Source: Alphaproteobacteria bacterium (GTDB lineage: Bacteria; Pseudomonadota; Alphaproteobacteria; Rs-D84). Taken from it: a stretch of 64,000 bases of DNA. Below are positions 5,953 to 31,618 of the stretch, piece by piece. The notes beneath the pieces are model-generated. The model was not told the DNA's origin. It saw only the letters and a list, made by a program, of their open reading frames with translations, and made no database searches. The DNA lies in NCBI GenBank assembly GCA_017630405.1, contig JAGBVH010000024.1:31638-95637 (forward strand). The letters run 5' to 3'. The translations under genes and the position numbers were made by a program. Within the stretch, counting starts at the first letter, position 1; each line of letters starts with the position of its first letter.

Positions 5953-6504
5953 TTAGAACACATAGCGTAATTTTACGCGACCTTCGTATTGTAAAAAGTC
6001 TGCATCTTCATCGATGACTTTATATATGTCTTGGGCATATACTACGCGGCCTTCGATGTCGAATTTGACCGGCAGTACCGGCAAATCCAGCGTTACGCCC
6101 AGCATACCCTGATAGGCAGTTGTGTCTTCGATATCGATTGTTGTAATTTCGTTTGGTTCGTATTTGCTGTCAAATGTCATACCAATACCAACACCGATAT
6201 ATGGCTTTACCACAGGGGTTGGCAATTTAAAGTATGCATTTACCATACCGAGATTCATTGTCAGTGCATCGCCATTGATATAGTTGTATTCACCTTCTAG
6301 TCTGAACAAAGGCAGATCGATACCCAGTACGCCGCCATAAGACTGGCTTGATTTAGAAATCTTGGCATCGTCAATAAAGATTGTATTGCCGCCAACACCG
6401 AATGTGCCACCAGCATAAATATCAAACAAGAGATTTGCATCAGCAGCACCCGCCATTAACATAACAGAAGCCGCAGTTAATATGCTTAATGATTTTATTT
6501 TCAT
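5953..6504 (-). CDS. Small outer-membrane beta-barrel protein (OmpW/OmpA-like, 8-strand type)
   Basis: Signal peptide MKIKSLSILTAASVMLMAGAADA, beta-strand pattern, C-terminal KLRYVF. Confidence 0.65.
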   Translation of the reverse strand: MKIKSLSILTAASVMLMAGAADANLLFDIYAGGTFGVGGNTIFIDDAKISKSSQSYGGVLGIDLPLFRLEGEYNYINGDALTMNLGMVNAYFKLPTPVVKPYIGVGIGMTFDSKYEPNEITTIDIEDTTAYQGMLGVTLDLPVLPVKFDIEGRVVYAQDIYKVIDEDADFLQYEGRVKLRYVF

Positions 6505-6550
6505 ATTTTTCTCCTTTATATGATATCATAGTAAAAAAAGAGTGATAGAT

Positions 6551-7075
6551 ATGCAAGAAAATAAACCTTTGTTAGTTGTTGGATTGGGCAATCCTGGAAC
6601 GGAATATCGGACCACGCGTCATAATGTTGGATTTATGGCGGTGGATGCGCTGGCCGGTGATGGGGTGGTGTGGAAGTCTGAAAAAAATGCGCTGGTGGCA
6701 CGTGGTGATATTGATGGCCACAAGGTGATTTTTGTAAAGCCACAGACATTTATGAATAACAGTGGTGTTGCGGTTCAGGCATTGATGACATTTTATAAGA
6801 TACCGTTGGAAAATCTGGTTGTAATTCATGATGATATGGATTTGCCGGTTGCGGATTGCCGCACTAAAATTGGTGGTGGCAGTGCTGGACACAATGGTAT
6901 TCGTTCCATCGATGCGCATGTCGGGCGTGATTATACGCGTATCAGAATTGGTATTGGACACCCACGTGATTTTGATTTGCCGATGAATCCGGCGGATTGG
7001 GTGCTGGGGCGATTTGGGCCCGTTCAATTGGATTTGATACGCGCCACAATTGGCAATATTAAATTATTTGATTAA
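6551..7075 (+). CDS. pth: Peptidyl-tRNA hydrolase
   Basis: LVVGLGNPGTEYRTTRHNVGFMAVDALA near the N-terminus. The ORF begins at 6542; ATG 6551 (MQENKPLLVVGLGNPG) matches the canonical Pth N-terminus. Confidence 0.9.
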   Translation: MQENKPLLVVGLGNPGTEYRTTRHNVGFMAVDALAGDGVVWKSEKNALVARGDIDGHKVIFVKPQTFMNNSGVAVQALMTFYKIPLENLVVIHDDMDLPVADCRTKIGGGSAGHNGIRSIDAHVGRDYTRIRIGIGHPRDFDLPMNPADWVLGRFGPVQLDLIRATIGNIKLFD

Positions 7076-10000
7076 GGGTTTTCCGATTCTTCTGTGTCAG
7101 ATATTACCGTGGCATTACCCGATATGCATGGGTCGGAAAACGTTACCTGATAGTTGTTTATGATGTTTTCGTATGCGGTGTCTTCGGCGCCACACTTTTT
7201 GAATACAGGATTAGGGTTAGGTTCGTTTGTCACCCGATAGTAATATGTATCGTCCTTGTTGGTTCTGTAAAACAAATACATGTTTTCATGTGTTGTGGCC
7301 AGGTATTTGGTCTTTGAAGTTGCTGTGTCTTGCTGGACAAGCAACCAATCGCCATCGCATTCAATTGTGGTTCCGTTAGGGAAGGCTTCTGTATCAGTTT
7401 CACCTGTCGGTTGAACTGTGTCGCCGATACATATCATGAATTGTGTGGTGGTGGCAATTCCAGCCGCAGCATATGGTATTGCTGAGCCTGCTGGACCACA
7501 TAATGGACCGTATTTATAATCTGTTAGTTGTGTGGGATAATTGCTCCACATAAACTGTCCCGAAGGTGTTATGCTTGTTACGCAGCAATTGCCGGATTGA
7601 TCTTTGCTACCATCGCAGCAGTTAGTTATATTGCTTGATATGTTTATGTGGCCGGATTCGCAGTATTGACCCGCGGAATCAAAACCATTGGATGGTTTGC
7701 AAGAGCAAATGCTTTGTTGGTAGCAGTTGCCTTGTTGGTTGCAGTTGACTTGTTGGGTGCAGTAATTGATAAAACCAACGCCACATGTTGTATCGCGACA
7801 GCTGTCTGGCATATCGGCAGTGCCAGTATTTTTTGCAAACCATGCCAACAATGTATCTGTATCGCCAGTGTGCGGTATTTTTATCATGTTATGTTCGTCT
7901 GATGCCAGAACTGTTTGTGGCGCATTTTCGCAGTTGCCCCAAATGCGTTCGGCAAAGCGACAGATATAGCATTCTTCGGTGTTGTCACTGCTGCACTCAC
8001 TTGCACATATGTTATATATGCAGTTTTTGCTTGGAATGTTTGTTAATTGGTCCCCGTTTTCTTTAAAGTTTATACAGTCTGTATTTTGCCCGTTGTGAAT
8101 AATATCGATCCAGCTTTTGTTGCCACCGTAAAGTTTGTTGTAATCGAATGAAAAATATTCTTTGTCCCCAATGGTTGTTTTTGCCAGCGGATATTCTTCG
8201 CGAATATTGGCCAGTGATGTCGTGCCGGCATCGCGGATGCATTGAACAACCTCGTTCCAGCAGGCGGTGCGATTGATAATGGATTTGCGGTTAATGGATG
8301 TGTCAATGTTTTCGCAAAGACCAAAGTTACCAGAAATTGACTTGCAAGCCTGAATGATGCACGAACGTCCAACCTCGGTACAGGTTTGCAGGATTGTGTC
8401 ATATGTTTTGTTTGTGGCGATGCCGGTCATACCTGTTGACCAGTCTGTGTCTGCGTCTGGTGCGCTTTCTAACAGGGCCGTACAGGCGTTGCGTACATCA
8501 GAACACATTTCATTTACTGTTTTATCCGCCAATACGCCAAAGGTGGACAGGGCGCGCGCATCAAAATCCTCGATGGATTCGGCGGTGTCTGCCAAACATT
8601 GTGTGGTCAGTGTTGTGCAGGATTGGCGCACTTCTTCCAATTTTTTATCCTGGGCCAGTTTGATTTGTGCCAGCGCATCATCAATAAAGTTTGCCCAAAC
8701 TGTATCTGCAATATCCTGACATTTTTCCATCGCGGGTTCCAAGAATTTCTTTTTAGTGTTCAGGTATGATACGAATTTTTCGTTCCCTGGAACCTTGGAC
8801 CATGCGGTTTCGTCACTTGGGCGTATAATTAATTTGCCCAAATCAACAAGGTTTACAGTTAAAAATGCTTCACCTGTTGACGGGTCGATATAACGGCCGG
8901 TTGTATCAAGGCACTTGGATAGGTTGTCGCCGCATACGGTTGTGTCGGTCAACATATCAATCATTTTTGATTTACAGGTTAGTATGTCGTCTGAATTGCG
9001 TTTCTGGTGGATGTCAAGGCGGGACATATCAAGCAGCGCGCTGCTTTCCAGAACCTGCTCACGTGCCTGATCTGTCTGGGTTTGATACGATTTTGCAACC
9101 GTATTACAATCCTGTTCAATTGCCATTTGGTATCCGCTTTCGGCAACGGCTAAATCTTCGGCCGAGCAAACCTCCATCGCCATTTCACGACATACGGGCA
9201 GGGCAGCGGAATAAAGGGCGGTGCCTGATTTAGTCGTGGTGGATGCGCCGGCCAGTGAGTCAATATTATCAAATGCTGCATCCATGTTCAGGGATAATGA
9301 TATTGCACTAAGATCCTGATTAAAGTTGCTGTCGCTGAAACTGGTATTAAGTTTTTTTGCGATACTGTCCAACATTTTCTTGGATTCAGATTGGTCTTTG
9401 GTATCAAATGCTGTTTCGCCCTCGGTCGCGGTGTTGATGGCGGCCGCATCTTCTTTATCAAGATTTACAGTCAGCAAGCGTTGGTTAAATTCCAGCAGTT
9501 TATCTTCGACCTTGGCCAATTGTTTTTTTGTAGAATCAAATTCGTTAACGCGAACAGAGCAGGCACAACGTTTTAGTTGTGCATCCTTGTTAGCGCAGAA
9601 TTCATCCATACAATCATAGTAAACAGTGCGACATTTGCTAAAGTCGCGGGACATAATTTGGTCGCGCAGGTTCGTGTCAGTTGTGTTTCGTGCGATATTT
9701 GCAGCACGCGAACGGGACGCTGTATTAGTCGCAGGTAAGCGGGTGGTGGCCGCTGTGCGGGCAACCGTTGGGGTGCGTGTCGCAGGCTTGGTGCTGCGTG
9801 GTTGAACAGTTGTTGCCGCAGGCTTTGCGGATGTGGCGCGGGGCATAACATTTGATGTGGTGCGTGCCGATACGGTCCGGTTTTCATTCAACGCAGTGCG
9901 GCCGGTATTTTTAACGGTTGTGTCACCGCGTGGGCCCGTTGTTGTGCCGCGTTCGCCCGAGTTTGTTGATTTGGATGTGCCGCTGGCGCGTGAATTGCTG

Positions 10001-10155
10001 GTCTTATTAGTGGTGTTTTTTCGTGCAGAAGATATATTTTGGGACGAGGTACGACGAACAGCGGCGCGCGCCGAGTCCGCACCATCATCAGCCACCGCCC
10101 CCTGAAACACAAGCGGTGCAAGCAATACAGCCAAAAGTAGTCTAATTCCCTTCAT
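7072..10155 (-). CDS. Large secreted protein: signal peptide, Thr/Ser/Arg-rich low-complexity (mucin-like) N-terminal region, coiled-coil middle, cysteine-rich C-terminal half
   Basis: 1027 aa. Signal peptide MKGIRLLLAVLLAPLVFQGAVA. About 170 aa of T/S/R/A/N-rich low complexity, then long helical segments. The C-terminal ~450 aa contains more than 40 Cys in CxxC/CC clusters. No recognisable enzymatic motif. Confidence 0.6.
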   Translation of the reverse strand: MKGIRLLLAVLLAPLVFQGAVADDGADSARAAVRRTSSQNISSARKNTTNKTSNSRASGTSKSTNSGERGTTTGPRGDTTVKNTGRTALNENRTVSARTTSNVMPRATSAKPAATTVQPRSTKPATRTPTVARTAATTRLPATNTASRSRAANIARNTTDTNLRDQIMSRDFSKCRTVYYDCMDEFCANKDAQLKRCACSVRVNEFDSTKKQLAKVEDKLLEFNQRLLTVNLDKEDAAAINTATEGETAFDTKDQSESKKMLDSIAKKLNTSFSDSNFNQDLSAISLSLNMDAAFDNIDSLAGASTTTKSGTALYSAALPVCREMAMEVCSAEDLAVAESGYQMAIEQDCNTVAKSYQTQTDQAREQVLESSALLDMSRLDIHQKRNSDDILTCKSKMIDMLTDTTVCGDNLSKCLDTTGRYIDPSTGEAFLTVNLVDLGKLIIRPSDETAWSKVPGNEKFVSYLNTKKKFLEPAMEKCQDIADTVWANFIDDALAQIKLAQDKKLEEVRQSCTTLTTQCLADTAESIEDFDARALSTFGVLADKTVNEMCSDVRNACTALLESAPDADTDWSTGMTGIATNKTYDTILQTCTEVGRSCIIQACKSISGNFGLCENIDTSINRKSIINRTACWNEVVQCIRDAGTTSLANIREEYPLAKTTIGDKEYFSFDYNKLYGGNKSWIDIIHNGQNTDCINFKENGDQLTNIPSKNCIYNICASECSSDNTEECYICRFAERIWGNCENAPQTVLASDEHNMIKIPHTGDTDTLLAWFAKNTGTADMPDSCRDTTCGVGFINYCTQQVNCNQQGNCYQQSICSCKPSNGFDSAGQYCESGHINISSNITNCCDGSKDQSGNCCVTSITPSGQFMWSNYPTQLTDYKYGPLCGPAGSAIPYAAAGIATTTQFMICIGDTVQPTGETDTEAFPNGTTIECDGDWLLVQQDTATSKTKYLATTHENMYLFYRTNKDDTYYYRVTNEPNPNPVFKKCGAEDTAYENIINNYQVTFSDPCISGNATVISDTEESENP

Positions 10156-10388
10156 CCTTTGTATGTCAATGTTAGCAAATTTATAAATTTTTGGGCAAGC
10201 ACAAAATGTCAGGAATTTATATAAAATATATTATATATAATTTTACTTGATTTTTTGTGATGATTTCGCTATTATCGGGGCACGCACCAAGTGCGAATAA
10301 CACAGCCGCGCTGTAAAATTTCTGTCCGAATTGAAAGATTTGGTCTGGCACACGCGGTGAGGATAACAACAGAAAAAAGGATAAAATC

Positions 10389-11240
10389 ATGGCATTGCCA
10401 ACATTTACAATGAAACAGTTGATGGAAGCTGGTGTTCATTTTGGTCACCATACACGTCGCTGGAATCCTCTGATGACACCATATGTTTATGGCGTTAAGG
10501 ATAAAATTCACATTATTAACTTGAACAAAACTGCACCTTTGTTGCATCGTTCTTTGGTTGCATTGGAAGCTATTGCAGCCGCTGGTGGTAAAGTGTTGTT
10601 TGTTGCAACAAAACATCAGGCAAAAGATATCGTTAAAGATGCTGCTGAACGTTGCGGTCAGTACTATGTTAATAATCGTTGGTTGGGTGGTATGTTGACA
10701 AACTGGACTACAGTTTCTCAGTCTATCCGTCGTTTGAAAAAGATGGAAGCAGATATCGCCAATGCTGACAAATTGGGCTTGACCAAGAAAGAAGTCGGCG
10801 TTATGACCAAAGAAGTTGAAAAATTGCGTGGCATTTTCGGTGGTATTATGGAAATGCACGGCACACCTCAGGCAATGGTGGTTATCGATGTTCCACGTGA
10901 AATGAACGCTGTTCGTGAAGCGAAAAACTTGGATATCCCAACAATCGCAATTTGCGATACAAACGCAAACCCAGAAATTGTTGACTATCCAGTCCCAGGT
11001 AATGACGACGCAGCACGCGCAACACAGTTGTACTGTGACTTGTTCGTAGATGCGATTTTGTCTGGTATCGAAAAACGCTTGGGTGGCGCAGCGGGCAAAA
11101 AAGTTGAATCTGATATGAAAGCAGATGCAGCAGATGAATTGGAAGAAGAAGTTAAAGCAAAAGAAGCTAAAATCAAATCCAAAACATCAGAAGCACGTGC
11201 AGAACGCCGTGGCAAATTGGCCGAAAAAGCAGATAAATAA
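10389..11240 (+). CDS. rpsB: 30S ribosomal protein S2
   Basis: MALPTFTMKQLMEAGVHFGHHTRRWNP... Acidic Lys/Glu-rich C-terminal tail. Confidence 0.95.
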   Translation: MALPTFTMKQLMEAGVHFGHHTRRWNPLMTPYVYGVKDKIHIINLNKTAPLLHRSLVALEAIAAAGGKVLFVATKHQAKDIVKDAAERCGQYYVNNRWLGGMLTNWTTVSQSIRRLKKMEADIANADKLGLTKKEVGVMTKEVEKLRGIFGGIMEMHGTPQAMVVIDVPREMNAVREAKNLDIPTIAICDTNANPEIVDYPVPGNDDAARATQLYCDLFVDAILSGIEKRLGGAAGKKVESDMKADAADELEEEVKAKEAKIKSKTSEARAERRGKLAEKADK

Positions 11241-12262: not shown

Positions 12263-13330
12263 GTGGCTATGGAATATATTGACATTGCGGTTAATGCTTT
12301 TGCAGATGAGGTGTCGGACATCCTGTGTGATTTTCGCAATTACGAGGTCGAGGCTGTATTTTATTTGACCGAGCATTGTAATCTGGCGTGCCCTGGTTGC
12401 TATATGCAGGCATCCCCAAATAAGTCCAAGGACGTATTGCCGACTATGGATATAGAATTTTATTTGTATGAGTTAAAAAAATTACCAAATTTTGTTAATA
12501 CTGTCGTCTTTTCTGGGGGCGAGATTTTTACCACACCATTGGAGTATATAAAACGTAATGCCCAGCAGGTTTTGGACAATGGGTGTGCGTTGCAGCTTAA
12601 AACAAACGGTTCGTGGGCTAATAATCCAGCCCAGCGCAATCAAGTTTTGTCTATGTTGCGCCAATTGCGGCCATGGTATGGCAGGATGCAGTACGAGTAT
12701 TCGATTAACGATGTTTTTAATAATGTGCCGAATTGGTTAAACAAGGCCTTGGGGCGTTTATATTGGAATAGGCTTGTCAGGGTGCCGGCATTGGATATGG
12801 CAATTTCGGTCGATAATATTTTACATCCGGAAAAGTCTGCTGATTGGTTCTGTGATATTGTGAATGCGGTGACCGAGGACAAGGAATTGGCACGCAAAAT
12901 CAATCTTAAAAGTTTTAGTTTCTTTCAGGCAGGCAGCCATTTCCGCGATAAAGTGATTAATAACGAAAAATTAAAGATGACGCATTTTTCGGTGCACAGT
13001 CGTATCCCTGTATGTAAATATCGCGTTAATGGTCATCGCGTGGAATCTTATCTGGGGAATTATGTTAATGTTGCTAATATAGATATGTATGAAAAGTTAA
13101 GCAATATTGTATTGTGTCCAATCGGTAATGTGACCGGACGATTGGTTTACTGTTTTTACCCAGACGAAACGGTTGGATTGGATTGTCTGCATTTGGAATC
13201 GGTGGGGCGTGTACCATATATTGATGAAAATGGTGAATATAAAAGTATCAGCAGAATCACCAAGGATATACATGATAAACTGGTTGCGGATTATCGTGCT
13301 GAGTTGCTAAAGAGAACAAAGGTGAAATGA
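12263..13330 (+). CDS. Radical SAM domain protein, function unknown
   Basis: CNLACPGC (CX3CX2C) at 12377..12400, with a downstream SGGE glycine-rich SAM-binding motif. Six more Cys in the C-terminal third but no clean SPASM pattern. AT-rich codon usage relative to neighbours. Confidence 0.65.
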   Translation: MAMEYIDIAVNAFADEVSDILCDFRNYEVEAVFYLTEHCNLACPGCYMQASPNKSKDVLPTMDIEFYLYELKKLPNFVNTVVFSGGEIFTTPLEYIKRNAQQVLDNGCALQLKTNGSWANNPAQRNQVLSMLRQLRPWYGRMQYEYSINDVFNNVPNWLNKALGRLYWNRLVRVPALDMAISVDNILHPEKSADWFCDIVNAVTEDKELARKINLKSFSFFQAGSHFRDKVINNEKLKMTHFSVHSRIPVCKYRVNGHRVESYLGNYVNVANIDMYEKLSNIVLCPIGNVTGRLVYCFYPDETVGLDCLHLESVGRVPYIDENGEYKSISRITKDIHDKLVADYRAELLKRTKVK

Positions 13331-16919: not shown

Positions 16920-16949
16920 AAAAACGCCCCAAGTGGGGCGAATTTTTTT
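16917..16949. terminator. Bidirectional terminator between the envC-like (+) and Fic/Doc-like (-) genes
   Basis: AAAAAACGCCCC aagt GGGGCG aaTTTTTTT. Confidence 0.65.
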
Positions 16950-17661
16950 AGATTGAGTGGTAATTTAATTTTTCTATGAATAAATCTTGTGTTCTGGACA
17001 TGCATTTGTACATATAATTATAATATGATTTTTTGTCACCACGCATGCCAAGGCGCAGGGCGTTCATATAATCTTGGTTGTCTGAAATCGCATTAAATGC
17101 GATTGGACGATAGCCACGATTGATTAAGAACCAATTCATCAACATACGCGCTGTGCGTTTGTTAAAATCTGTGAAAGGCTGCAGCATGATAATGTCATAA
17201 TGCACATCAAATGCGCGTTGCAGTATGCTGGCGTTGCCGCTGTTAAGGCGATATAAGATATCATCTAGCTTTTGGCGAACAACTTCTTGGCTTGCAGGTG
17301 CTTCGATAATTGTTTGTAGGTTGCATACGCTTTTTATGCGGATTTCCCCCGGTATAACATCTGTTTCTTGGGCCAGACTGCGATGAATATCAAATACTTC
17401 CCTGATGGTAAAGTTAGCGATATTTGTTCTTGATACAATCATATCCCATGTTTGTCCAATATTGTGAATGCTTTCGCTGCTTGTTTCATGACGAATATGC
17501 GCATCGTGACATTGGTTTAATACAAGTGTTTCTTTGATAAAGGCGCTTTTAATCCATGCGATATCATCAAGGTGTTTAGCCTTGCTGTGAAGTAATTGTG
17601 TAATAGTTTCGCGTTTTTCTTCTATTGCGCGTTTGATATCATATACTTGTTTTTTAGTCAT
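16948..17661 (-). CDS. Fic/Doc-family protein with non-canonical active-site motif
   Basis: The segment LQPFTDFNKRTARMLMNW (nt 17146..17181) aligns with the Fic HPFx(D/E)GNGR and Doc HxFx(D/N)(A/G)NKR motifs. Here His is replaced by Gln and Gly-Asn-Gly by Phe-Asn-Lys. Confidence 0.55.
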   Translation of the reverse strand: MTKKQVYDIKRAIEEKRETITQLLHSKAKHLDDIAWIKSAFIKETLVLNQCHDAHIRHETSSESIHNIGQTWDMIVSRTNIANFTIREVFDIHRSLAQETDVIPGEIRIKSVCNLQTIIEAPASQEVVRQKLDDILYRLNSGNASILQRAFDVHYDIIMLQPFTDFNKRTARMLMNWFLINRGYRPIAFNAISDNQDYMNALRLGMRGDKKSYYNYMYKCMSRTQDLFIEKLNYHSI

Positions 17662-24547: not shown

Positions 24548-24575
24548 AAACACCCCATGGCGGGGTGTTTTTTTG
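24545..24575 (+). terminator. Rho-independent terminator after bamE
   Basis: AAAAACACCCC atgg CGGGGTGTTTTTTTG. It has the same ACACCCCG/CGGGGTGT stem family as the terminators at 27079 and 28320. Confidence 0.7.
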
Positions 24576-24628
24576 CTTGTGCTGGTTATGTGTTTTTTTC
24601 TATCATATTAATATTAATAGGGAAGGAC

Positions 24629-25417
24629 GTGGGAAAAATAACCAGATTTTTGCGGTTTTTAACGGTTTTTGCGATGCTGCCTTTGGGCATGGATGCGTTT
24701 GCTGTGGGTTATGTGTGTGAATCGGTACGCGTTTATACATCCTGTATGGAAGGTTACTATTTATCTGATTGTGGTGGGACTGAAACGGATTGGGATGGTC
24801 GAACATTGGGCGAAGCGGAATTTGTGGCAGGTAACTACTGTGCATCATGTCCAGAAGGATATGACTGTGAAGGTGGTATGAAGTGTCCTTATAATCCAAA
24901 TTCTGTTGTTGAGGGTGGATTTGTTTGCGAAGAAGCATATTTCACATGTGAGGCAGGATATTATTTGTCCGATTGTGGTTCGAATAGTGCGAATTGGTCG
25001 GGCCAGGAACTGACACAAACGGATGTGACAGCGGGTAATTCGTGTGCCATTTGTCCTGTGGGGTATGACTGTGCGGGTGGTATGAAATGTCCGCTTAGAG
25101 TAACAATAAAATGTGAGGCGGGTCAGTATTTGCCTGCAAATTCGGAAGAATGTAAGATATGTTCGATGGGGTCTTATTGTCCTGGTGGTGATTTGGCGCC
25201 TGGTGATAAGGACGCGGGAATTGTTCCTTGTGGTGATGGGACATATGCAGATGAAGAGGGATTGGCGGCATGTAAAAGTTGTGAACCTTTCCATGGCGCA
25301 TCAATAAAGTCTGATGGGGAACGTGACAGTCGTTTGAATTGTTATGTGCCAGCGGACGAACAAGTGACTGATGAAACAGGCAGTTTCACGTATGTGATGG
25401 ATTGTTTTTATGAATAA
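24629..25417 (+). CDS. Secreted cysteine-rich repeat protein, paralog 1 of a tandem family
   Basis: The ATG at 24557 of the track ORF lies inside the bamE terminator hairpin. GTG 24629, preceded by GGAAGGAC, gives a signal peptide (KITRFLRFLTVFAMLPLGMDAFA) that matches paralog 4. Two ~47-aa YYLSDCG...AGNSC.xCPxGYDCEGGMKCP repeats. C-terminal module CYVPADEQVTDETGSFTYVMDCFYE is shared with paralogs 2-4. Confidence 0.65.
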   Translation: MGKITRFLRFLTVFAMLPLGMDAFAVGYVCESVRVYTSCMEGYYLSDCGGTETDWDGRTLGEAEFVAGNYCASCPEGYDCEGGMKCPYNPNSVVEGGFVCEEAYFTCEAGYYLSDCGSNSANWSGQELTQTDVTAGNSCAICPVGYDCAGGMKCPLRVTIKCEAGQYLPANSEECKICSMGSYCPGGDLAPGDKDAGIVPCGDGTYADEEGLAACKSCEPFHGASIKSDGERDSRLNCYVPADEQVTDETGSFTYVMDCFYE

Positions 25418-25436
25418 AAATCATAAGAGTAAACCA

Positions 25437-25513
25437 TCAGGAAGTTTTTTTGCTTGCCTTGCTTGTGGAAAAATTTCTAGAATTTATTTGTAAGGAATAA
25501 AAAGGAGAAAAAA
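25437..25513 (+). promoter_or_regulatory. Conserved promoter/5'UTR cassette of the Cys-rich family (copy 1)
   Basis: TTGCTTGTGGAAAAATTTCTAGAATTTATTTGTAAGGAATAAAAAGGAG is near-identical to 27113..27189. It contains a TAGAAT -10-like element and an AGGAG Shine-Dalgarno. Confidence 0.5.
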
Positions 25514-27061
25514 GTGTCAAAAAGTTCACGTTTTTATGTGGCTTCTTTGGCGGTATTGCTGTCATATAACGCATATGGTGCGGGGTATGTTTGCGATTCG
25601 CTGATGCAGTATAATAGCTGTAAGGAAGGCTTGTATATGGTGTATGGTCAGACAAACAAATATGACCCTGTGCCATCTACTACTAATGATTGTAGACAAT
25701 GTCCAACGAATGCGGCATACTGCGCAGGTGGTGTAGAAGCGCCTTTGTATGCGGTTACATTGGATCCAAATGGCGGTACTGCGGGCGCTATGAATACATT
25801 TTATGTTGCGCAGAGTAAGGCCGATACAAACACCGTGACATACTGTATGGCGGATGCGGAATCTTTGGATACATGTGCAACAAATACTTCGAATCAGTTG
25901 CCACAGGCTGCGATGCCAACTTATGACAGATATCATAGTTTTGTGGGTTTCTTTACCGAGGCAGAAGGTGGCACAATGTTGTCGAATAGTTCGCTTTTGC
26001 TGGGTTATCCCCTATCGGGTGGTTTGACAGGTACAGCGCCTGCGACATTGTATGCTCAGTGGGAGCAGATTCTTTGTTATCCTGGTGAATATATGACGGA
26101 TGATGGGTGTAAGACTTGTCCGGTTACGGCTATGGCTGGCCCAGCATACTGTGAAGGTGATCTGTACAACCCACTGTACACAGTTACCTTAAAGCCAGCA
26201 GGTGGTACGGTTCAGGCCGATCATTTCTGGATTGGTCAAAGCAACAGTGATCAAACATATTACTGCGATGCAAGTGATGATACCAAAAAGTCCGAGTGCG
26301 TGACGAATGCTGGAGGTTCGGTTGCGTTGACGTTCCCATTGGACAGCAAGTATATCCCAACGCGTGATAAACATGCGTTCCTTGGTTGGTCATTGACACC
26401 ACAAATGGATGGCCAGACTGCTAATTATGTAATTGATGCGAATGGTGCTTTGATTGGTACGATTCCATCAGACACCAGTCCACTCTTGTATGCATGGTGG
26501 GAAACAACATCTTGCGAACCAGGTCAGTATCTGGATGAAAGCAAGACATGTCAGTCATGTCCAGAAAACTATAAGGACAGCTCGGGTGCGGGTACAAACG
26601 GCATTGGCGAATGTTACCTGATTACAAAGCCAGGTTATATGGTTGGCTTCGAGGGTCAGGGCGAAATGGATTGCCAAGGCGGATTCTGGTGCCCAGGTAG
26701 TGTCACAGTTTACTATGACAAGACAGGTGGTATGAATCAGTGTCCAGGTAATTATCGTTCCGGTGGTAATAACTTGTCCGCAGAAGCAGAGTGTGCTTGG
26801 AACGTTCCAGGTGGATCTTATGTCAAGAACGCTAAGGACGTTGCGGCAACTGCTTGTGAGTCCGGTGAATGGAAGGCGGCACATACAGTTAAGTATGGCG
26901 AAACCTCCGCGCCACAGACTTGTGCGGGCTTGGATGGCCAGAAGGGTGAATCTGCAGAGCCACGTGACGCAGTAACAACCTGCTTCATCCCAGCGGAACA
27001 GTCGCTGACAAATACCAAGGGTGACTACGTCTTTACAGAAGATTGTAAGTGGACGGAATAA
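25514..27061 (+). CDS. Secreted cysteine-rich repeat protein, paralog 2
   Basis: GTG start, with signal peptide MSKSSRFYVASLAVLLSYNAYGAGYVCDS. Multiple CxxCP...YC / CxxCPENYKDSSG modules. Conserved C-terminal module CFIPAEQSLTNTKGDYVFTEDCKWTE. Confidence 0.7.
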   Translation: MSKSSRFYVASLAVLLSYNAYGAGYVCDSLMQYNSCKEGLYMVYGQTNKYDPVPSTTNDCRQCPTNAAYCAGGVEAPLYAVTLDPNGGTAGAMNTFYVAQSKADTNTVTYCMADAESLDTCATNTSNQLPQAAMPTYDRYHSFVGFFTEAEGGTMLSNSSLLLGYPLSGGLTGTAPATLYAQWEQILCYPGEYMTDDGCKTCPVTAMAGPAYCEGDLYNPLYTVTLKPAGGTVQADHFWIGQSNSDQTYYCDASDDTKKSECVTNAGGSVALTFPLDSKYIPTRDKHAFLGWSLTPQMDGQTANYVIDANGALIGTIPSDTSPLLYAWWETTSCEPGQYLDESKTCQSCPENYKDSSGAGTNGIGECYLITKPGYMVGFEGQGEMDCQGGFWCPGSVTVYYDKTGGMNQCPGNYRSGGNNLSAEAECAWNVPGGSYVKNAKDVAATACESGEWKAAHTVKYGETSAPQTCAGLDGQKGESAEPRDAVTTCFIPAEQSLTNTKGDYVFTEDCKWTE

Positions 27062-27078
27062 TCCTGAGGTTAGCACTA

Positions 27079-27112
27079 AAAAGACACCCCGTTCCCGGGG
27101 TGTTTTTTTTTG
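27079..27112 (+). terminator. Rho-independent terminator after paralog 2
   Basis: AAAAAGACACCCCG ttc CCGGGGTGTTTTTTTTT. Confidence 0.7.
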
Positions 27113-27189
27113 AAGTTCTGCTTTTTTCTCTTGCGTCGATTGTGGAAATTTTTCTAGAATTTGTCTGTAAGGAATAAAAGGAGAAGAAA
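27113..27189 (+). promoter_or_regulatory. Conserved promoter/5'UTR cassette of the Cys-rich family (copy 2)
   Basis: TTGTGGAAATTTTTCTAGAATTTGTCTGTAAGGAATAAAAGGAG aligns with 25437..25513. Confidence 0.5.
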
Positions 27190-28302
27190 TTGTCAAAATA
27201 TTCACGTTTTTATGTAGGGACTCTGGCGGTATTGCTGTCATACAATGCATATGGTGCAGGGTTCGTCTGCGATTCGATTAAGCAGTATGATAGCTGTGAT
27301 ACAGGATACTATTTGTATGGCACAAATGGACTGGGTTCAGTTAATCCTGGAAATGAGTGTAAGACGTGTCCTGATTTACAGGCATTCTGTCCTGGTGGCG
27401 TCAATGGTCCATTGTATCAGACAAAGTTTGGTGTGCAAAACAACGAAGGTGTTGTATTGCGTGACACTCTTATGATTGGTGAAAAATCAGATGGCAGTTT
27501 GTATTGGTGTGATGCTACATTGGACGATCACATTGCAATAGAAGACTGTGTTGAAGCCGGTGGGAATAGTTTTGAAAGTGGAATCGCATCGGACTTTATA
27601 CCGACGCGTCCGCAGTATGCGTTTAGAGGTTGGGCGAATAGTGATGATCTGAGTACTTTGCTTTTTGACAGTCGTGGTAAGATTGCTAATCAGGAAGAGG
27701 TGTCTAGTAGATTGGGTACTATGCAACTGGTTGCAATTTGGGAAAGAACATCATGTAATGCCAATGAATATCTTGAGAATGCGGCATGTAAGCCTTGCCC
27801 AACAGAATTCCCGAACAGCGATGGATCGGGCGGCATCAATACATGTTATGTAGATGTTCAGCCAGGTAAGTATGTATATGGCTTTGCACAGTCCGGCAAG
27901 GGTCAGGAAGACTGCCCAGCTGGTCATTACTGTGAAGGTGGTATGAGAGCGTACTATAATGATCAAGAGATTGGTGCGACACAGTGTCCAGAGAACTATA
28001 GAAATGGTGGCGCTGGATATACTTCAATCACTCAGTGTGTTGCAACAGTTCAGGGTGGTTATCGTATCGAAACAGAGAACAGTGCACCAGCTGTCTGTGC
28101 AAGTGGCACATGGAGCCTTGAACACTCGGTCACATATGGTCAGACATCCACATGTGAATCCTGTGGTACATTGGATGGTGTTGCAGCCTCGTCTAAGGAA
28201 CCACGTAATTCCAAGACAAGTTGCTATATCGCTCCAAATCAGGGAACTAAGGACGATAGAGGTAACTATACCTTTACACAAGACTGCGTATGGACAGAAT
28301 AA
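27190..28302 (+). CDS. Secreted cysteine-rich repeat protein, paralog 3
   Basis: TTG start, with signal peptide MSKYSRFYVGTLAVLLSYNAYGAGFVCDS. The N-terminus is near-identical to paralog 2. Conserved C-terminal module CYIAPNQGTKDDRGNYTFTQDCVWTE. Confidence 0.7.
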   Translation: MSKYSRFYVGTLAVLLSYNAYGAGFVCDSIKQYDSCDTGYYLYGTNGLGSVNPGNECKTCPDLQAFCPGGVNGPLYQTKFGVQNNEGVVLRDTLMIGEKSDGSLYWCDATLDDHIAIEDCVEAGGNSFESGIASDFIPTRPQYAFRGWANSDDLSTLLFDSRGKIANQEEVSSRLGTMQLVAIWERTSCNANEYLENAACKPCPTEFPNSDGSGGINTCYVDVQPGKYVYGFAQSGKGQEDCPAGHYCEGGMRAYYNDQEIGATQCPENYRNGGAGYTSITQCVATVQGGYRIETENSAPAVCASGTWSLEHSVTYGQTSTCESCGTLDGVAASSKEPRNSKTSCYIAPNQGTKDDRGNYTFTQDCVWTE

Positions 28303-28319
28303 TCTTGTTCGTATTGGTC

Positions 28320-28352
28320 AAAAAAACACCCCGATTGCGGGGTGTTTTTTTG
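28320..28352 (+). terminator. Rho-independent terminator after paralog 3
   Basis: AAAAAAACACCCCG attg CGGGGTGTTTTTTTG. Confidence 0.7.
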
Positions 28353-28432
28353 TGAATTTTTGCTTTTTTGGCTTGCGTCAATTTGGCTAATTTTATACCA
28401 TTAGATATAAAGGGATAAGGAAAGATATTCAT

Positions 28433-31400
28433 ATGTTTAGATTTCTGCGTTTTTTAGCAGTTTTTGTAGCGTTATTTGTTAGTGCAAATGCGTTAGCTGT
28501 TGGTTTTGTTTGCGAATCGGAACGTACTTATACATCGTGTGTAAGCGGGTATTATTTGTCCGATTGTGGCAGTTATTCCGATGGCCGCACATTGACCGAA
28601 TCGGATTTGTCGGCTGGAAATTCGTGCGTTCTATGCCCAGATGGTTATGACTGTGAAGGTGGTATGAAGTGTCCCTATGATCCGAATGCGGATGAAGATG
28701 ATGGTTTTGTCTGTGATGAAGCGTATTTCTCGTGTGAGTCTGGTTATTATCTGTCTGACTGTGGTGATACAGAGTATGCTTGGGATGGGCGCACTTTGAC
28801 CAAAGATGAAGTTACATTTGGCAACTCTTGTGAAGCCTGTCCAGAAGGTTATGATTGTGAAGGTGGTATGACATGTCCAGCAGGTAGTAATAAGCCGATA
28901 ACCAGCTGTCCAGCCGATCAGTTTTTATCTGATTGTAATAATCTTTCTTCTTGGACAGGCCAGACACTGGATAGTAGTAATTTAAGTGCAAATAATAGTT
29001 GTGTGTCTTGTCCCGATGAATATTCTTGTTCTGGTGGTTTGAGTTGTCCTGCTAGAATAACTGGTGAGTCTGGATTTACTTGTGATTATAAAATATTTAC
29101 GGGGTGTGGAGAAGGGCGTTTCTTGTCCGATTGTGGTGCTTCATCTAATTGGATTGGGCAGACATTGGAAAGAGATGAACTTGAAGCTGGTAATAGTTGT
29201 CTTGCTTGTCCAGATGGTTATGACTGTGAAGGTGGGACGACATGTCCGATTAATATGAATCTGGAGTATTTGTTTGAGGTTATAACTACGTCTGGAACGA
29301 CAAGCTTTAAGTTTAATATCAACGCATCTGGTAATTACTGGGTTGATTGGGGTGATGGCAAGGTTGAAATGAGGAAGTCTGTAGAGTCAACAACCTTTGA
29401 CCATACGTATGCTAGCGCTGGTGCTTATACAATTAAGATTGGTGGTGTGTCTGGATCCTATCCATATGCGGAAGATGATACGCCAGCGATGACATTTTAC
29501 AACAAGACCAATGTTGCGGCTTTGGATGGTAGCCTTGGTAAATTGTTCCCTGTATTAAAGGATTCTGGGGTAAATCCATACTTTGGGTATATGTTCTCGG
29601 GCGCGACTAATTTGAAGCAAATTCCATCGACTCTGTTTTTGGGAATTGGTGATACAGATCGTCCAGCTATGTTTGAAGGTATGTTTGCGAATTCTGGTTT
29701 GACTTCGATTCCTGTCGGTCTGTTCAACAGTATAACTCAACCTGCGGATGGATTGTTTAGTGATATGTTCTTGGGAATTAAAGCGTTAACCAGTTTGCCA
29801 GAAGGTTTGTTTGCTCATATTGATGCGGCCGCGGGCGAAGCAGAATATATGTTCAGCTATACATTTAGTGGTACTGGGCTGACAAGTTTGCCGGATTCGC
29901 TGTTTGGTGAGTTGGAAGCATCTGATGGATTGTTCTCTAATACCTTTTCGAATACACCATTGGAGCAGATTCCTGCGGATTTGTTTAGCGGTGTAACAGG
30001 TGTGGCGCCTGCTATGTATCAGGCTACGTTTGATACTGCTGATGTAAGATCTATACCTGTTGGCTTGTTTGATGGCTTGTATGGTCAGGATAGTATACCG
30101 GATACAATGTTTGAGGGCACGTTTAGTGCGTGTACATCTTTGTCTGGTCCTGCGGCGCGATTCTCGGATAATTTGGGTGGCAAGTTCCTGCACGAGGTTT
30201 GGCCGATGTTGGAAGCCGATATGGGTACATATGCCGATACAAATATTGATAATTTGAAGTATATCCCAACATCTTGGGGTGGTGGTGGCCTTGTAAAGTG
30301 TGCGGCTGGTACATATTTGCCAGAAAATGCATATGTTTGCGAAACCTGTCCAGCTGGCTCATATTGCCCAGGTGTTGATGAGTTGTTTATTGATTCTGTT
30401 GAGCAGGGACGGGTATCTTGTCCTGCGGGTTATACAAGCAATGCAACTGGTAATACCAGTGGTGTAGATTGCTTTGGTGGGTACAAGTTCACAATCGAGA
30501 CTCTGCCTATGACTGGTGCGTTTGAATTGTCTCTGGTATCTGTTAAGGGTAATTATTGGATTGATTGGGGTGATGATACACCGGTGGAATATATACCAGT
30601 AACCGATTTTGCCAACAAAACCGTTCCACACACATATGAAGGTTCTGCTGAGGCGCGCACGATTAAGATTGGCGGTTTGACAACGGAGTATAATCAAGAT
30701 ATGGCGGCATGGAGTTCTGGTGTATTCAAAATCAATGGGAATCAGTATGTGTCGAAGGTTTCGGGCAGTTTGGGTGCCATATTCCCAACAATGTCAGACG
30801 GAACACAGCCTGGATTCTTTAATTTGTTTATGAGCTGTCCAAATCTGACTGAAATTCCATCGACATTGTTTGATGGTGTCCATGGTCAGCCACGTGTCCA
30901 GATGTTCTTTAATTCCTTTGCTGGAACAGGTTTGACATCAATCCCAGAAGGCTTGTTTGCTGGATTGGATGGCGCGCCAACCGAAATGTTGTTTGCAAAT
31001 ACTTTTGCGGGCACCAAAACTACATCGATACCGGATGGACTGTTTGATGGGCTGGACACATCGGCACCAGGTGCAGAAAATATGTTTGCGCAGACATTTT
31101 ATAATTGCACGTCTTTGACTGGTCCTGCGGCGAAAATGTCCGCGGCCAATGGTGGTCAGTATCTGCATAAAATCTGGCCGATGAGTGGTGCGACTATGCA
31201 GACTTATACCGGCACAAATATTGATGGGCTGCGTGCTATCCCAGTGTCTTGGGGTGGCGAGGGTGTCTTGGATTGTGTCGCTGGTACATATCAGTCTGCG
31301 GACGAAACAGAGTGTTTGACATGTGCTTTGGGTGCTTTCTGTGTTGGTGGATTAGCACCACAGGAAACATGCGCTGATGGTACTTATGCTGACGAAACTG

Positions 31401-31558
31401 GCTTGGCAGAATGTAAAGCGTGTGATAAGTTGTATGGAGTTGGCGCTTCGTCGTCCTTGCCTCGTACTTCAATAAATAATTGCTATATTCCAAAGGATGT
31501 GGGGTTAAGTGATGGTAAGGGTAATTTCTCATTTATAGAGAATTGCCAGTATCAGTAA
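28433..31558 (+). CDS. Large secreted cysteine-rich protein, paralog 4, with four N-terminal Cys repeats and an internally duplicated beta-sandwich plus BspA-like leucine-rich repeat module
   Basis: 1041 aa. Signal peptide MFRFLRFLAVFVALFVSANALA. Four ~47-aa CPxGYDCEGG repeats (nt ~28520..29248). Two ~300-aa modules (nt ~29261..30292 and ~30485..31267), each with GNYW(V/I)DWGD, followed by ...LTSIP.GLF... repeats and ...YLH.(V/I)WPM...IP.SWGG. Family C-terminal module ...CYIPKDVGLSDGKGNFSFIENCQYQ. Confidence 0.75.
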   Translation: MFRFLRFLAVFVALFVSANALAVGFVCESERTYTSCVSGYYLSDCGSYSDGRTLTESDLSAGNSCVLCPDGYDCEGGMKCPYDPNADEDDGFVCDEAYFSCESGYYLSDCGDTEYAWDGRTLTKDEVTFGNSCEACPEGYDCEGGMTCPAGSNKPITSCPADQFLSDCNNLSSWTGQTLDSSNLSANNSCVSCPDEYSCSGGLSCPARITGESGFTCDYKIFTGCGEGRFLSDCGASSNWIGQTLERDELEAGNSCLACPDGYDCEGGTTCPINMNLEYLFEVITTSGTTSFKFNINASGNYWVDWGDGKVEMRKSVESTTFDHTYASAGAYTIKIGGVSGSYPYAEDDTPAMTFYNKTNVAALDGSLGKLFPVLKDSGVNPYFGYMFSGATNLKQIPSTLFLGIGDTDRPAMFEGMFANSGLTSIPVGLFNSITQPADGLFSDMFLGIKALTSLPEGLFAHIDAAAGEAEYMFSYTFSGTGLTSLPDSLFGELEASDGLFSNTFSNTPLEQIPADLFSGVTGVAPAMYQATFDTADVRSIPVGLFDGLYGQDSIPDTMFEGTFSACTSLSGPAARFSDNLGGKFLHEVWPMLEADMGTYADTNIDNLKYIPTSWGGGGLVKCAAGTYLPENAYVCETCPAGSYCPGVDELFIDSVEQGRVSCPAGYTSNATGNTSGVDCFGGYKFTIETLPMTGAFELSLVSVKGNYWIDWGDDTPVEYIPVTDFANKTVPHTYEGSAEARTIKIGGLTTEYNQDMAAWSSGVFKINGNQYVSKVSGSLGAIFPTMSDGTQPGFFNLFMSCPNLTEIPSTLFDGVHGQPRVQMFFNSFAGTGLTSIPEGLFAGLDGAPTEMLFANTFAGTKTTSIPDGLFDGLDTSAPGAENMFAQTFYNCTSLTGPAAKMSAANGGQYLHKIWPMSGATMQTYTGTNIDGLRAIPVSWGGEGVLDCVAGTYQSADETECLTCALGAFCVGGLAPQETCADGTYADETGLAECKACDKLYGVGASSSLPRTSINNCYIPKDVGLSDGKGNFSFIENCQYQ

Positions 31559-31618
31559 AAAAAATTGCGTTTGTAAAGTGCAGTCAAAAAGTGTAAAATA
31601 AGGTAAAGCGAGAAAAAT

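What the first reader, a model, noticed from the sequence alone, without database searches (positions are those of the whole stretch)
7072..10155. 1027-aa secreted protein with a mucin-like disordered N-terminus, coiled coil and a >40-Cys C-terminal half
The signal peptide is followed by ~170 aa of Thr/Ser/Arg/Ala/Asn-rich low complexity (TTNKTSNSRASGTSKSTNSGERGTTTGPRGDTTVKNTGRT...). Next come long helical Glu/Lys/Asp-rich segments, then a dense cysteine-rich region (CxxC and CC pairs). The gene is wedged between pth and rpsB, with its own divergent promoter region at 10156..10388. The architecture is atypical for free-living alphaproteobacteria and resembles secreted effectors or adhesins of intracellular bacteria.
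Basis: seen in the sequence. Interest (0 to 1): 0.6.

Follow-up and report, generated by a model that had tools for sequence, protein, structure and literature searches.

The report
Disulfide-stapled secreted protein of Enterousia
This is a real, strongly conserved gene for a large exported, cysteine-rich protein with no recognisable relatives outside one group of uncultured small-genome gut bacteria; it is probably a rigid envelope or surface protein used to interact with other cells, but its function is untested.

Summary
The 1027-aa ORF (7072..10155, minus strand) is real. It belongs to Candidatus Enterousia (order Rs-D84), uncultured gut Alphaproteobacteria with 0.7-1.0 Mb genomes. Orthologs occur across the lineage, usually next to pth-OMP-polA. 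No Pfam, NCBIfam, PHROG, PDB-sequence or Foldseek (PDB, viral) match exists.

It has four parts:
- a cleavable Sec signal peptide;
- a ~140-aa disordered tail that is Arg/Thr/Ser/Ala-rich and polycationic (+18), not mucin-like;
- a ~485-aa all-helical core with 22 invariant cysteines, including four C-x6-C helices about 40 aa apart;
- a ~375-aa acidic, variable alpha/beta C-terminal part with 24 more cysteines.

Cys counts are even in 90% of orthologs, which points to disulfides. dN/dS is about 0 in the core and 0.11-0.30 in the C-terminal part.

A paralogous family in the same lineage keeps the signal, tail and core. Its C-terminus is replaced by Cys-repeat modules that also occur as stand-alone secreted ORFs in this window.

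Best reading: a new lineage-restricted family built as cationic tether, disulfide-stapled stalk and exchangeable head, probably for envelope or surface interaction. Whether it reaches the surface or stays in the periplasm is unresolved.

The parts
10169..10199 (-). Putative promoter: CTTGCCC (-35-like, 10199..10193), an 18-nt spacer, then TGCTAACAT (extended -10-like, 10177..10169), ending 13 nt before the ATG
   Evidence: Invariant or nearly invariant in 12 orthologous loci whose surrounding sequence is otherwise diverged. It matches 8/12 of the sigma-70 consensus, below the threshold of the scan. Function is inferred, not shown.
10087..10155 (-). Signal peptide, residues 1-23 (MKGIRLLLAVLLAPLVFQGAVA), predicted SPase I cleavage after A-V-A; no lipobox Cys
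   Evidence: Read from the sequence. It is the only Kyte-Doolittle window above 1.6 in the protein and is conserved in the family. Cleavage site is inferred.
9661..10086 (-). Polycationic disordered tail, residues 24-165: a conserved mature N-terminus DDxxDxARAAxRR, then an Arg/Thr/Ser/Ala-rich stretch (20 Arg, net about +18)
   Evidence: pLDDT <50. Composition. Always present in relatives at 126-228 aa with net charge +10..+24. Several Arg positions are invariant (R34, R98, R133, R156). dN/dS 0.10-0.39.
8206..9660 (-). Conserved all-alpha Cys core, residues 166-650, with 22 Cys invariant in orthologs; 19 of them are also essentially invariant in the paralog family
   Evidence: Conservation. 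AlphaFold2 core model has mean pLDDT 75.9 and is all-helical. One variable site in 485 aa among strain-level relatives. dN/dS 0-0.05. No PDB fold match.
8239..8619 (-). Array of four C-x6-C helices (C513/520, C551/558, C592/599, C632/639) with a period of about 40 aa; inferred doubly stapled helical hairpins
   Evidence: Cys positions. The pairs are symmetric about residues 535.5 and 615.5, which fall in or next to modelled inter-helix loops.
7075..8205 (-). Variable, acidic, Cys-rich alpha/beta C-terminal part ('head'), residues 651-1027, 24 Cys
   Evidence: pLDDT about 90 for most of it. Low conservation and many indels. 26 variable columns in 377 among strain-level relatives. dN/dS 0.11-0.30 and 3-5x higher dS than the core. 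Net charge -25.
7720..7755 (-). 12-aa strain-variable insertion QQVNCNQQGNCY (residues 801-812) that carries two Cys, at the tip of the modelled beta-hairpin 795-805/811-821
   Evidence: Present in 3 of 8 strain-level sequences and absent in 5. Hairpin position.
7072..7075 (.). Convergent overlap of the stop codons of this gene (7072..7074, minus) and pth (7073..7075, plus)
   Evidence: The same arrangement occurs in L042-L044.

Best explanation
The gene encodes a genuine Sec-exported protein of about 105 kDa. It is the ortholog group of an undescribed superfamily restricted to Rs-D84 / Ca. Enterousia gut Alphaproteobacteria. After signal-peptide cleavage the protein has three functional blocks.

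1. A flexible polycationic Arg/Thr/Ser/Ala tail. I infer that it acts as an electrostatic tether to a polyanionic surface: the cell's own LPS or peptidoglycan, or a partner's glycans.
2. A nearly invariant all-helical core. I infer that about 11 disulfides make it rigid and protease-resistant, including C-x6-C staples across helical hairpins, so that it serves as a stalk or scaffold.
3. An acidic, disulfide-rich, fast-evolving alpha/beta C-terminal 'head', which I infer to be the specificity-determining interaction surface.

A paralog family keeps blocks 1 and 2 and swaps block 3 for other Cys-repeat modules. The core is therefore a carrier for exchangeable heads. The most likely role is an envelope or surface interaction (attachment) protein of a partner-dependent bacterium.

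Shown: gene reality, export signal, architecture, conservation pattern, modularity, Cys parity. Inferred: disulfide pairing, tether function, surface exposure, binding role.
For: Real and constrained: at least 872 homologs, 745 clusters, conserved synteny with pth-OMP-polA, dN/dS 0.10-0.14 overall and 0-0.05 in the core.

Export: a conserved signal peptide with AxA and no other hydrophobic segment.

Disulfides rather than cofactors: Cys counts are even in 128/142 orthologs (p 1.6e-24) and step by two (40/42/44/46). A strain-level indel adds or removes two Cys together. All 22 core Cys are invariant. By established knowledge, Sec exports unfolded chains, so cytoplasmically inserted Fe-S clusters are excluded.

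Stalk plus head: the core has 1 variable site in 485 aa against 26 variable columns in 377 aa in the C-terminal part among strains. Second-tier relatives match only the signal, tail and core and have different C-termini. Those C-termini share repeat modules with stand-alone secreted Cys-rich ORFs at 24557..31558 of this window (E down to 3e-25).

Tether: a cationic tail (+6..+23) and an acidic body (-15..-82) are conserved in all subfamilies.

Lifestyle: Rs-D84 genomes are below 1 Mb, lack a respiratory chain and standard transporters, and a partner-dependent lifestyle has been proposed (PMC12306168).

Novel fold and family: no hit in Pfam, NCBIfam, PHROGs, PDB sequences, PDB Foldseek or BFVD.
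Against: No route across, or anchor in, the outer membrane is evident. There is no beta-barrel, lipobox or known C-terminal sorting signal, and no secretion-system genes lie nearby. A folded, disulfide-rich 100-kDa protein cannot use a type V pathway, so by default it would stay in the periplasm.

Region-wide dN/dS below 1 in the head (0.11-0.30) gives no sign of the diversifying selection typical of exposed adhesins.

The lineage reportedly lacks a respiratory chain, so the usual DsbA/DsbB-quinone route for disulfide formation is questionable. No Dsb-like gene was seen in the DNA at hand (a small sample).

No binding domain of known specificity was found. The disulfide pairing could not be checked on coordinates.
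Confidence: 0.45

Rival explanations
1. Periplasmic envelope scaffold. The protein stays in the periplasm after Sec export. The cationic tail binds peptidoglycan or phospholipid head groups. The rigid disulfide-stapled helical body acts as a structural spacer or organiser of the envelope in a bacterium that has lost many standard envelope systems.
For: A Sec signal with no recognisable outer-membrane translocation or anchoring feature. Extreme conservation of the core fits a housekeeping structural role. The gene is embedded among housekeeping genes with conserved synteny. Its neighbours in other genomes are envelope proteins: a Pom-type porin, DUF3078, PBP1C and OmpA.
Against: A hypervariable C-terminal third with strain-level indels and exchangeable Cys-repeat heads is unusual for an internal scaffold. 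A genome-wide investment in signal-peptide Cys-rich repeat proteins looks more like a surface coat.
Confidence: 0.3
2. Released toxin or effector. The protein is secreted into the gut lumen or delivered to a partner or host cell. The Arg-rich tail mediates binding to or entry into the target cell, and the C-terminal part is the active moiety.
For: The family is lineage-restricted with a variable C-terminus. Arg-rich cationic segments can bind membranes (general knowledge).
Against: No toxin or enzymatic domain by Pfam, NCBIfam, PHROGs, PDB or Foldseek. No immunity-like or secretion-system partner gene is conserved nearby. It behaves as a single-copy core gene in conserved housekeeping synteny, not on an island. 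There is no link to plasmids, phages or viral contigs.
Confidence: 0.1
3. Metal-binding or redox-buffer protein. The many cysteines act as metal ligands or as a thiol/disulfide reservoir rather than as structural disulfides.
For: 46 Cys, all conserved ones invariant. The organism is an anaerobe without a respiratory chain, where disulfide formation is not trivially explained.
Against: Even-number parity and paired gain and loss of Cys. Only 6 His and a single CxxC. Sec rather than Tat export (sequence; established knowledge on cofactor-containing exported proteins). Cys sit on helices in i/i+7 pairs facing partner helices.
Confidence: 0.05

Closest known systems
Chlamydial cysteine-rich envelope protein OmcB (60-kDa CRP)
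   Same: A Sec-exported, Cys-rich (>20 Cys) envelope protein of a genome-reduced host-associated bacterium. It has a basic N-terminal segment, reported to bind glycosaminoglycans, ahead of a disulfide-cross-linked body (from general knowledge).
   Different: No sequence or fold relationship: no Chlam_OMP6/DUF11 Pfam hit and no Foldseek hit. OmcB is beta-rich, whereas this core is all-alpha. OmcB's basic motif is short, whereas here it is a ~140-aa polycationic disordered region.
Mycobacterial heparin-binding haemagglutinin (HBHA)
   Same: A combination of a helical domain and a low-complexity polycationic segment that binds sulfated glycans. This is a functional analogy for the tail (general knowledge).
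   Different: HBHA is small, Lys/Ala/Pro-rich and Cys-free, and its basic domain is C-terminal. There is no homology.
Twin-CX9C (CHCH) and twin-CX3C helical hairpins of the mitochondrial intermembrane space
   Same: Two Cys on one helix face paired with two Cys on the antiparallel helix, giving a doubly disulfide-stapled hairpin. The C-x6-C pairs here (513/520 with 551/558, and 592/599 with 632/639) are arranged symmetrically in the same way.
   Different: The spacing is x6 rather than x9 or x3. The motif is embedded in a 485-aa bacterial exported domain. No CHCH Pfam hit. The pairing is inferred, not observed.
Giardia variant-specific surface proteins and ephrin-receptor-like (GCC2_GCC3, PF07699) Cys repeats
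   Same: A Cys-rich extracytoplasmic coat in an anaerobic gut dweller. Relatives of this protein (P0226, P0232) and the paralog family carry ephrin-receptor-like or DUF7631 Cys repeats as their C-terminal heads.
   Different: The window protein itself has no such repeats and almost no CxxC. It has no C-terminal TM anchor. It is a bacterial Sec substrate.
F-type conjugation protein TraN (Cys-rich outer-membrane mating-pair stabiliser)
   Same: A large signal-peptide protein with about 22 conserved Cys that mediates cell-cell contact (general knowledge).
   Different: No PF06986 hit. No similarity to any plasmid-encoded sequence. No conjugation genes nearby.

Membership tests
   Pfam best hit is UAF_Rrn10, E 0.083, 13.6 bits against a cut-off of 20.8. 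NCBIfam gave 0 families. All listed homologs have '-' for precomputed Pfam.
Proteins with a solved structure | Sequence (phmmer/profile) or fold (Foldseek) similarity to a PDB chain | tested here: not met
Mucin-like (PTS) domain | Pro/Thr/Ser-dominated, roughly neutral or acidic low complexity, usually in tandem repeats | tested here: not met
   Thr+Ser is 33%, but Pro is only 4.6% and Arg is 13%, net about +19. There are no tandem repeats, only irregular Arg spacing of 4-14 residues.
Canonical coiled coil | Sustained heptad a/d hydrophobic periodicity in long helices; oligomeric supercoil | tested here: inconclusive
   Long helices are modelled, up to 72 residues. The a/d hydrophobic fraction of the three longest is only 0.47-0.67 against 0.31-0.43 elsewhere. 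No dedicated predictor or multimer model was available.
Chlamydial OmcB / Chlam_OMP6 | PF03504/DUF11 beta-rich repeats | tested here: not met
   No Pfam hit. The core is all-alpha.
Autotransporter / type V secreted adhesin | C-terminal beta-barrel translocator domain (PF03797) or a TPS domain | tested here: not met
   No Pfam hit. No barrel in the model. True autotransporters in the same window and lineage are detected by the same search (57405..58526; L039).
Lipoprotein | Lipobox [LVI][ASTVI][GAS]C at the end of the signal peptide | tested here: not met
   No Cys before residue 175.
Ephrin_rec_like / DUF7631 Cys-repeat proteins | Repeated C..C..G.Y...C modules (PF07699, PF24634) | tested here: not met
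   Absent from the window protein, and tblastn of the query against the window finds no paralog. The modules are present in relatives P0226, P0232 and P0269, in paralog C-termini, and in window ORFs 24557..31558.
New Rs-D84 'polycationic tail + Cys-helical core' superfamily (defined here) | Signal peptide; 100-230-aa Arg/Ser/Thr/Ala cationic tail; core beginning Y..C+..Y..CMDxFC....D...+RC.CS, with 19 Cys shared by both subfamilies plus C599 in the ~1,000-aa one | tested here: met
   The window protein has all of these features, and it is the first sequence of alignments A1 and A2.
Phage / plasmid / mobile-element protein | Similarity to phage, plasmid or viral-contig sequences; PHROG match | tested here: not met
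   No tblastn match in plasmids or phages. PHROG best E 0.041. No relative in viral contigs.

The most novel reading that the evidence does not exclude
The protein and its paralogs, together with the stand-alone Cys-repeat ORFs, form a previously undescribed disulfide-rich surface coat or attachment apparatus of Rs-D84 bacteria. A new all-alpha 'stapled stalk' fold would be tethered electrostatically by a polycationic tail and would display exchangeable heads that bind the partner or host. That would also imply an unconventional oxidative-folding and outer-membrane export route in an anaerobe that lacks a respiratory chain and, apparently, classical secretion systems.
Probability: 0.25. Interest if true: 0.7.

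Novelty: new variant of a known kind. Interest (0 to 1): 0.5.

Why it matters
Ca. Enterousia / Rs-D84 are widespread but uncultured gut bacteria of humans and livestock. Their genomes are below 1 Mb and they have no known means of acquiring nutrients, so a partner-dependent lifestyle has been proposed without any molecular candidate. This gene spends about 0.3% of such a genome on one protein. It is found throughout the sampled lineage, and its core is almost frozen in sequence. Sequence and Foldseek comparison give it no known fold.

It offers a concrete handle for three things: raising antibodies or probes to localise the cells and their partners, studying how an anaerobe without a respiratory chain makes heavily disulfide-bonded exported proteins, and defining a new protein family or domain for annotation. 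If it turns out to be only a periplasmic scaffold, it still defines a lineage marker and a new disulfide-stapled helical domain.

Tried and rejected
1. Homology to known families gave nothing: Pfam, NCBIfam, PHROGs, and PDB by sequence and by profile.
3. Mobile-element origin is rejected: no plasmid, phage or viral-contig relatives.
4. Internal duplication of the core was suggested by the C-x6-C-x4-C-x9-C spacing occurring twice (175-197 and 592-614). hhalign between core segments gave no significant match (best P 0.025, probability 1.9%), so I do not claim it.
5. Positive selection on the head is not supported: dN/dS is 0.11-0.30.
6. There are no paralogs of the query inside the window.
7. 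A regex search for Dsb/thioredoxin-like active sites in the window and a few loci found nothing. This is too small a sample to conclude absence.
8. Operon partners: the neighbours differ between genomes apart from pth-OMP-polA, which are functionally unrelated housekeeping genes.
9. Literature: nothing on this family.
Full report
1. THE OBSERVATION

An ATG-initiated ORF of 1027 codons lies at 7072..10155 on the minus strand.

The N-terminus, MKGIRLLLAVLLAPLVFQGAVA|DD, has the features of a Sec/SPase I signal. It has basic residues (K2, R5), a 12-residue hydrophobic stretch and A-V-A at -3..-1. It has no lipobox, because there is no Cys before residue 175. It is the only hydrophobic segment in the protein.

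Residues 24-165 are Thr/Ser/Arg/Ala/Asn-rich.

The protein has 46 Cys (4.5%). Housekeeping ORFs of the same window have about 0-1.5%.

The flanking genes are confirmed: pth at 6542..7075 (PF01195, E 1e-58), rpsB at 10389..11240 (PF00318, E 2e-86) and tsf.

- The tail is polycationic: 13% Arg, 4.6% Pro, net about +18/+19. It is not mucin-like.
- The cysteines start at residue 175, and 22 of them lie within the helical region.
- There is only one CxxC and two CC. The recurrent motif is C-x6-C, with 6 copies against 2.4 expected by shuffling (p about 0.03).

2. WHOSE GENE IT IS, AND WHETHER IT IS REAL

A search of 5.8 billion proteins returned at least 872 relatives. The top 120 are full-length (945-1110 aa) at 49-98% identity. 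None has a Pfam domain, and the few that carry a name are called hypothetical.

In species-representative genomes, 38 loci were found. All are gut MAGs labelled Candidatus Enterousia, Alphaproteobacteria or Rickettsiales; a few are labelled Muribaculaceae, which is probably a binning error. The hosts include human, sheep, yak, horse, rabbit, deer and mouse. Two of the loci come from complete chromosomes of 716 kb and 958 kb.

Ca. Enterousia is the GTDB genus Rs-D84 in the order Rs-D84 (PMC8035907; NCBI taxonomy). The lineage has genomes below 1 Mb, no TCA cycle or respiratory chain and no standard transporters, and a partner-dependent lifestyle has been proposed for it (PMC12306168).

The window also encodes PFOR, LpxI, small OMP beta-barrels and an autotransporter. 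This points to an anaerobic diderm.

The gene order BIG-pth-small OMP-polA is conserved in most of the loci.

Four strain-level alleles give dN/dS of 0.10-0.14 across the gene. The gene is therefore real, expressed in evolutionary terms, and functionally constrained.

Upstream, CTTGCCC-N18-TGCTAACAT (10199..10169) is invariant in 12 orthologous loci whose flanks are otherwise diverged. It resembles a -35 box plus an extended -10 box. It matches only 8/12 of the consensus, so the promoter scan missed it.

3. ANATOMY

AlphaFold2 on a 70-sequence alignment gives the following.
- Residues 1-163 are disordered (pLDDT about 30).
- Residues 161-654 are entirely helical, with helices up to 72 residues.
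- Residues 655-1010 form a mixed alpha/beta region with pLDDT about 90.

A second model of residues 160-660 used a more diverse 78-sequence alignment. It reaches mean pLDDT 75.9, with long stretches above 90, and is again all-helical.

Conservation shows three patterns.
- The core, about residues 170-650, is 55-88% identical to the query column by column, and 22 Cys are invariant.
- The C-terminal third is 10-35% identical, with many indels.
- The tail varies in sequence but is always present. It is 126-228 aa long, with net charge +10..+24, 10-15% Arg and 22-45% Ser+Thr. Several Arg positions are invariant, and the mature N-terminus DDxxDxARAAxRR is conserved.

The folded body is acidic: the core is -24 and the head is -25. 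The arrangement of a cationic tail on an acidic body is conserved in every subfamily.

4. DISULFIDES

Four lines of evidence point to disulfides.
- Counting from the first core Cys, the number of Cys is even in 128 of 142 orthologs (p 1.6e-24), and it steps by two: 40, 42, 44, 46.
- Among strain-level relatives, a 12-aa insertion (residues 801-812, QQVNCNQQGNCY) adds two Cys at once. It sits at the tip of a modelled beta-hairpin.
- Four C-x6-C pairs, at 513/520, 551/558, 592/599 and 632/639, recur about every 40 residues on consecutive helices. Pairs 1 and 2 are symmetric about residue 535.5, which lies in a modelled loop. Pairs 3 and 4 are symmetric about residue 615.5. This is the geometry of doubly stapled antiparallel hairpins, as in twin-CX9C or twin-CX3C proteins. 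I infer this pairing but could not verify it, because model coordinates are not exposed.
- Sec export of an unfolded chain, few His (6) and a single CxxC all argue against metal clusters.

5. A WIDER MODULAR SUPERFAMILY

An exhaustive profile search of 1.84 billion representatives found 745 clusters at E <= 1e-3 and 323 at E <= 1e-30. Below the orthologs there is a second tier scoring 250-350 bits. It matches only profile positions of about 5-617, that is signal, tail and core. These proteins range from 600 to 1759 aa and have unrelated C-termini.

Searching with one second-tier member (P0263) showed a paralog family. It has a median length of 847 aa and 33 Cys, and it occurs in the same lineage, including Ca. 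Enterousia avicola. One member (P0340) has a longest contig of 288,148 bp, the same length as the contig that carries ortholog locus L017.

Nineteen of the core Cys are essentially invariant in both families (at least 97% of the sampled paralogs). The twentieth, C599, is invariant in orthologs and absent from paralogs. The paralogs mostly have odd Cys counts, which suggests one free or intermolecular Cys.

Some relatives end in ephrin-receptor-like or DUF7631 Cys repeats.

The window's five consecutive signal-peptide, Cys-rich ORFs at 24557..32152 have 4.3-8.7% Cys. Four of them share about 60-aa repeat modules with the C-terminal parts of the paralogs, with E-values down to 3e-25.

The invariant tail-plus-core therefore carries interchangeable heads drawn from a repertoire that also exists as independent secreted proteins.

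6. EVOLUTIONARY DYNAMICS

Among eight sequences at 90% identity or more, the core has 1 variable site in 485 aa. The head has 26 variable columns in 377 aa.

dN/dS is 0-0.05 in the core, 0.11-0.30 in the head and 0.10-0.39 in the tail. The head is therefore relaxed or fast-evolving, but it is not under region-wide positive selection.

dS is 3-5 times higher in the head than in the core (Fisher p 3.5e-4 for one pair). This hints at recombination that swaps head segments between strains.

7. COMPARISON WITH WHAT IS KNOWN

No search gave a significant match.
- Pfam: best E 0.083, below the cut-off.
- NCBIfam: none.
- PHROGs: best E 0.041.
- PDB: by sequence best E 0.37, and by profile best E 0.67.
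- Foldseek: full model against PDB best E 0.59, core model against PDB best E 3.6, and full model against BFVD best E 0.05 at probability 0.11.
- Plasmids, phages and viral contigs: none.

The resemblances that remain are functional analogies, not memberships.
- Chlamydial OmcB, a Cys-rich envelope protein with a basic N-terminal glycan-binding segment.
- Mycobacterial HBHA, a helical domain plus a polycationic low-complexity binder.
- CHCH and small-Tim stapled hairpins.
- Giardia VSP-like Cys-rich coats.
- TraN.

The details of these five come from general knowledge, and the lack of homology was tested here.

8. MECHANISM AND RIVALS

My best reading (confidence about 0.45) is an exported protein built as tether, stalk and head, working in envelope or surface interaction. 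The cationic tail would hold the acidic body on an anionic surface. The disulfide-stapled core would give a rigid scaffold that resists gut proteases. The variable head would provide specificity.

The main weakness is topology. No outer-membrane translocation or anchoring feature is visible, and a folded, disulfide-rich protein cannot use type V secretion. A periplasmic scaffold role is therefore a serious rival (0.3). A released toxin or effector (0.1) and a metal or redox role (0.05) are less likely.

How an anaerobe without a respiratory chain oxidises about 23 disulfides per molecule is an open problem. I could not address it without whole genomes. A motif search in the DNA at hand found no thioredoxin-like active site, but that sample is too small to be conclusive.

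9. VERDICT

The interpretation as a secreted effector or adhesin of intracellular bacteria is only partly supported.

What is really there is the ortholog group of an unannotated, lineage-restricted, modular Cys-rich protein superfamily with no detectable sequence or fold relatives. That makes it a new variant of the broad class of exported, disulfide-rich surface or envelope proteins.

Interest is moderate (0.5). It is a good candidate for the still unknown partner-interaction machinery of Rs-D84, and it defines a new domain for annotation, but there is no functional evidence yet.

Noticed in passing
window 24557..32152 (+): Five consecutive Cys-rich ORFs of 286, 515, 370, 1041 and 177 aa with 4.3-8.7% Cys; four have clear signal-peptide-like N-termini. 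Four of them (286, 515, 370 and 1041 aa) are built from about 60-aa 'C..C..G.YC.GG' ephrin-receptor-like/DUF7631 repeats and share a conserved C-terminal segment ending ...NCY(I/V)P...G.(F/Y).F...C.(Y/W).E. No hydrophobic anchor was found in any of them. The 286-, 515-, 370- and 1041-aa ORFs share modules with the C-termini of the paralog family (E down to 3e-25). Together with the studied gene, Cys-rich exported proteins take up a large share of this 64-kb window.
   Followed up: partly
window 34461..39815 (+): A 1784-aa ORF with a signal-peptide-like N-terminus, only 4 Cys and no Pfam hit. It is another very large uncharacterised exported protein.
   Followed up: no
L002 5852-5937, L016 5853-5937, L041 7846-7929: In most related genomes a tRNA-Leu with the anticodon AAG lies about 65 nt upstream of the ortholog on the same strand. 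An A34 anticodon is unusual for bacterial tRNAs other than Arg. It is absent upstream of the gene in this window and in L001 and L042, where rpsB is the neighbour, so there was a local rearrangement in this species group.
   Followed up: partly
window 7072..7075: The stop codons of the gene (minus strand) and of pth (plus strand) overlap convergently. This leaves no room for an intergenic terminator. The same arrangement occurs in strain-level relatives L042-L044.
   Followed up: partly
window 7075..8205 versus 8206..9660: Synonymous divergence between strain-level alleles is 3-5 times higher in the C-terminal part than in the core (Fisher p 3.5e-4 for one pair). This suggests intragenic recombination, or strong synonymous constraint in the core.
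   Followed up: partly
paralog family (P0263, P0291-P0408; e.g. L039 8001-10493): The ~850-aa paralogs mostly have an odd number of Cys (85 of 115) because they lack the counterpart of C599. This suggests one free or intermolecular cysteine. In Ca. Enterousia avicola the paralog lies among unknown 720- and 856-aa proteins, OmpA-domain proteins and a Chlam_PMP-like autotransporter.
   Followed up: no
window 5953..6504 (-): A small 183-aa OMP beta-barrel protein keeps its synteny with pth and polA across the lineage. If its signal peptide is cut after A-G-A, the mature N-terminus starts Ala-Asp. From memory, this resembles the alanyl-aspartyl motif by which Brucella OMPs are linked to peptidoglycan. 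This is a lead only.
   Followed up: no
L041 1-7762: In another Enterousia-lineage genome, the region upstream of the ortholog encodes an alpha-2-macroglobulin-like protein (1896 aa) next to a PBP1C-type transglycosylase/transpeptidase. It also encodes a porin related to Protochlamydia outer membrane proteins (PF17251, E 3e-11) and a DUF3078 protein.
   Followed up: no
window 16948..17661 (-) and 12263..13330 (+): A Fic/DOC-domain protein (E 3e-15) and a weak radical-SAM-like ORF (E 6e-6, below the Pfam cut-off), the latter followed by an unannotated 203-aa ORF. Neither was examined further.
   Followed up: no
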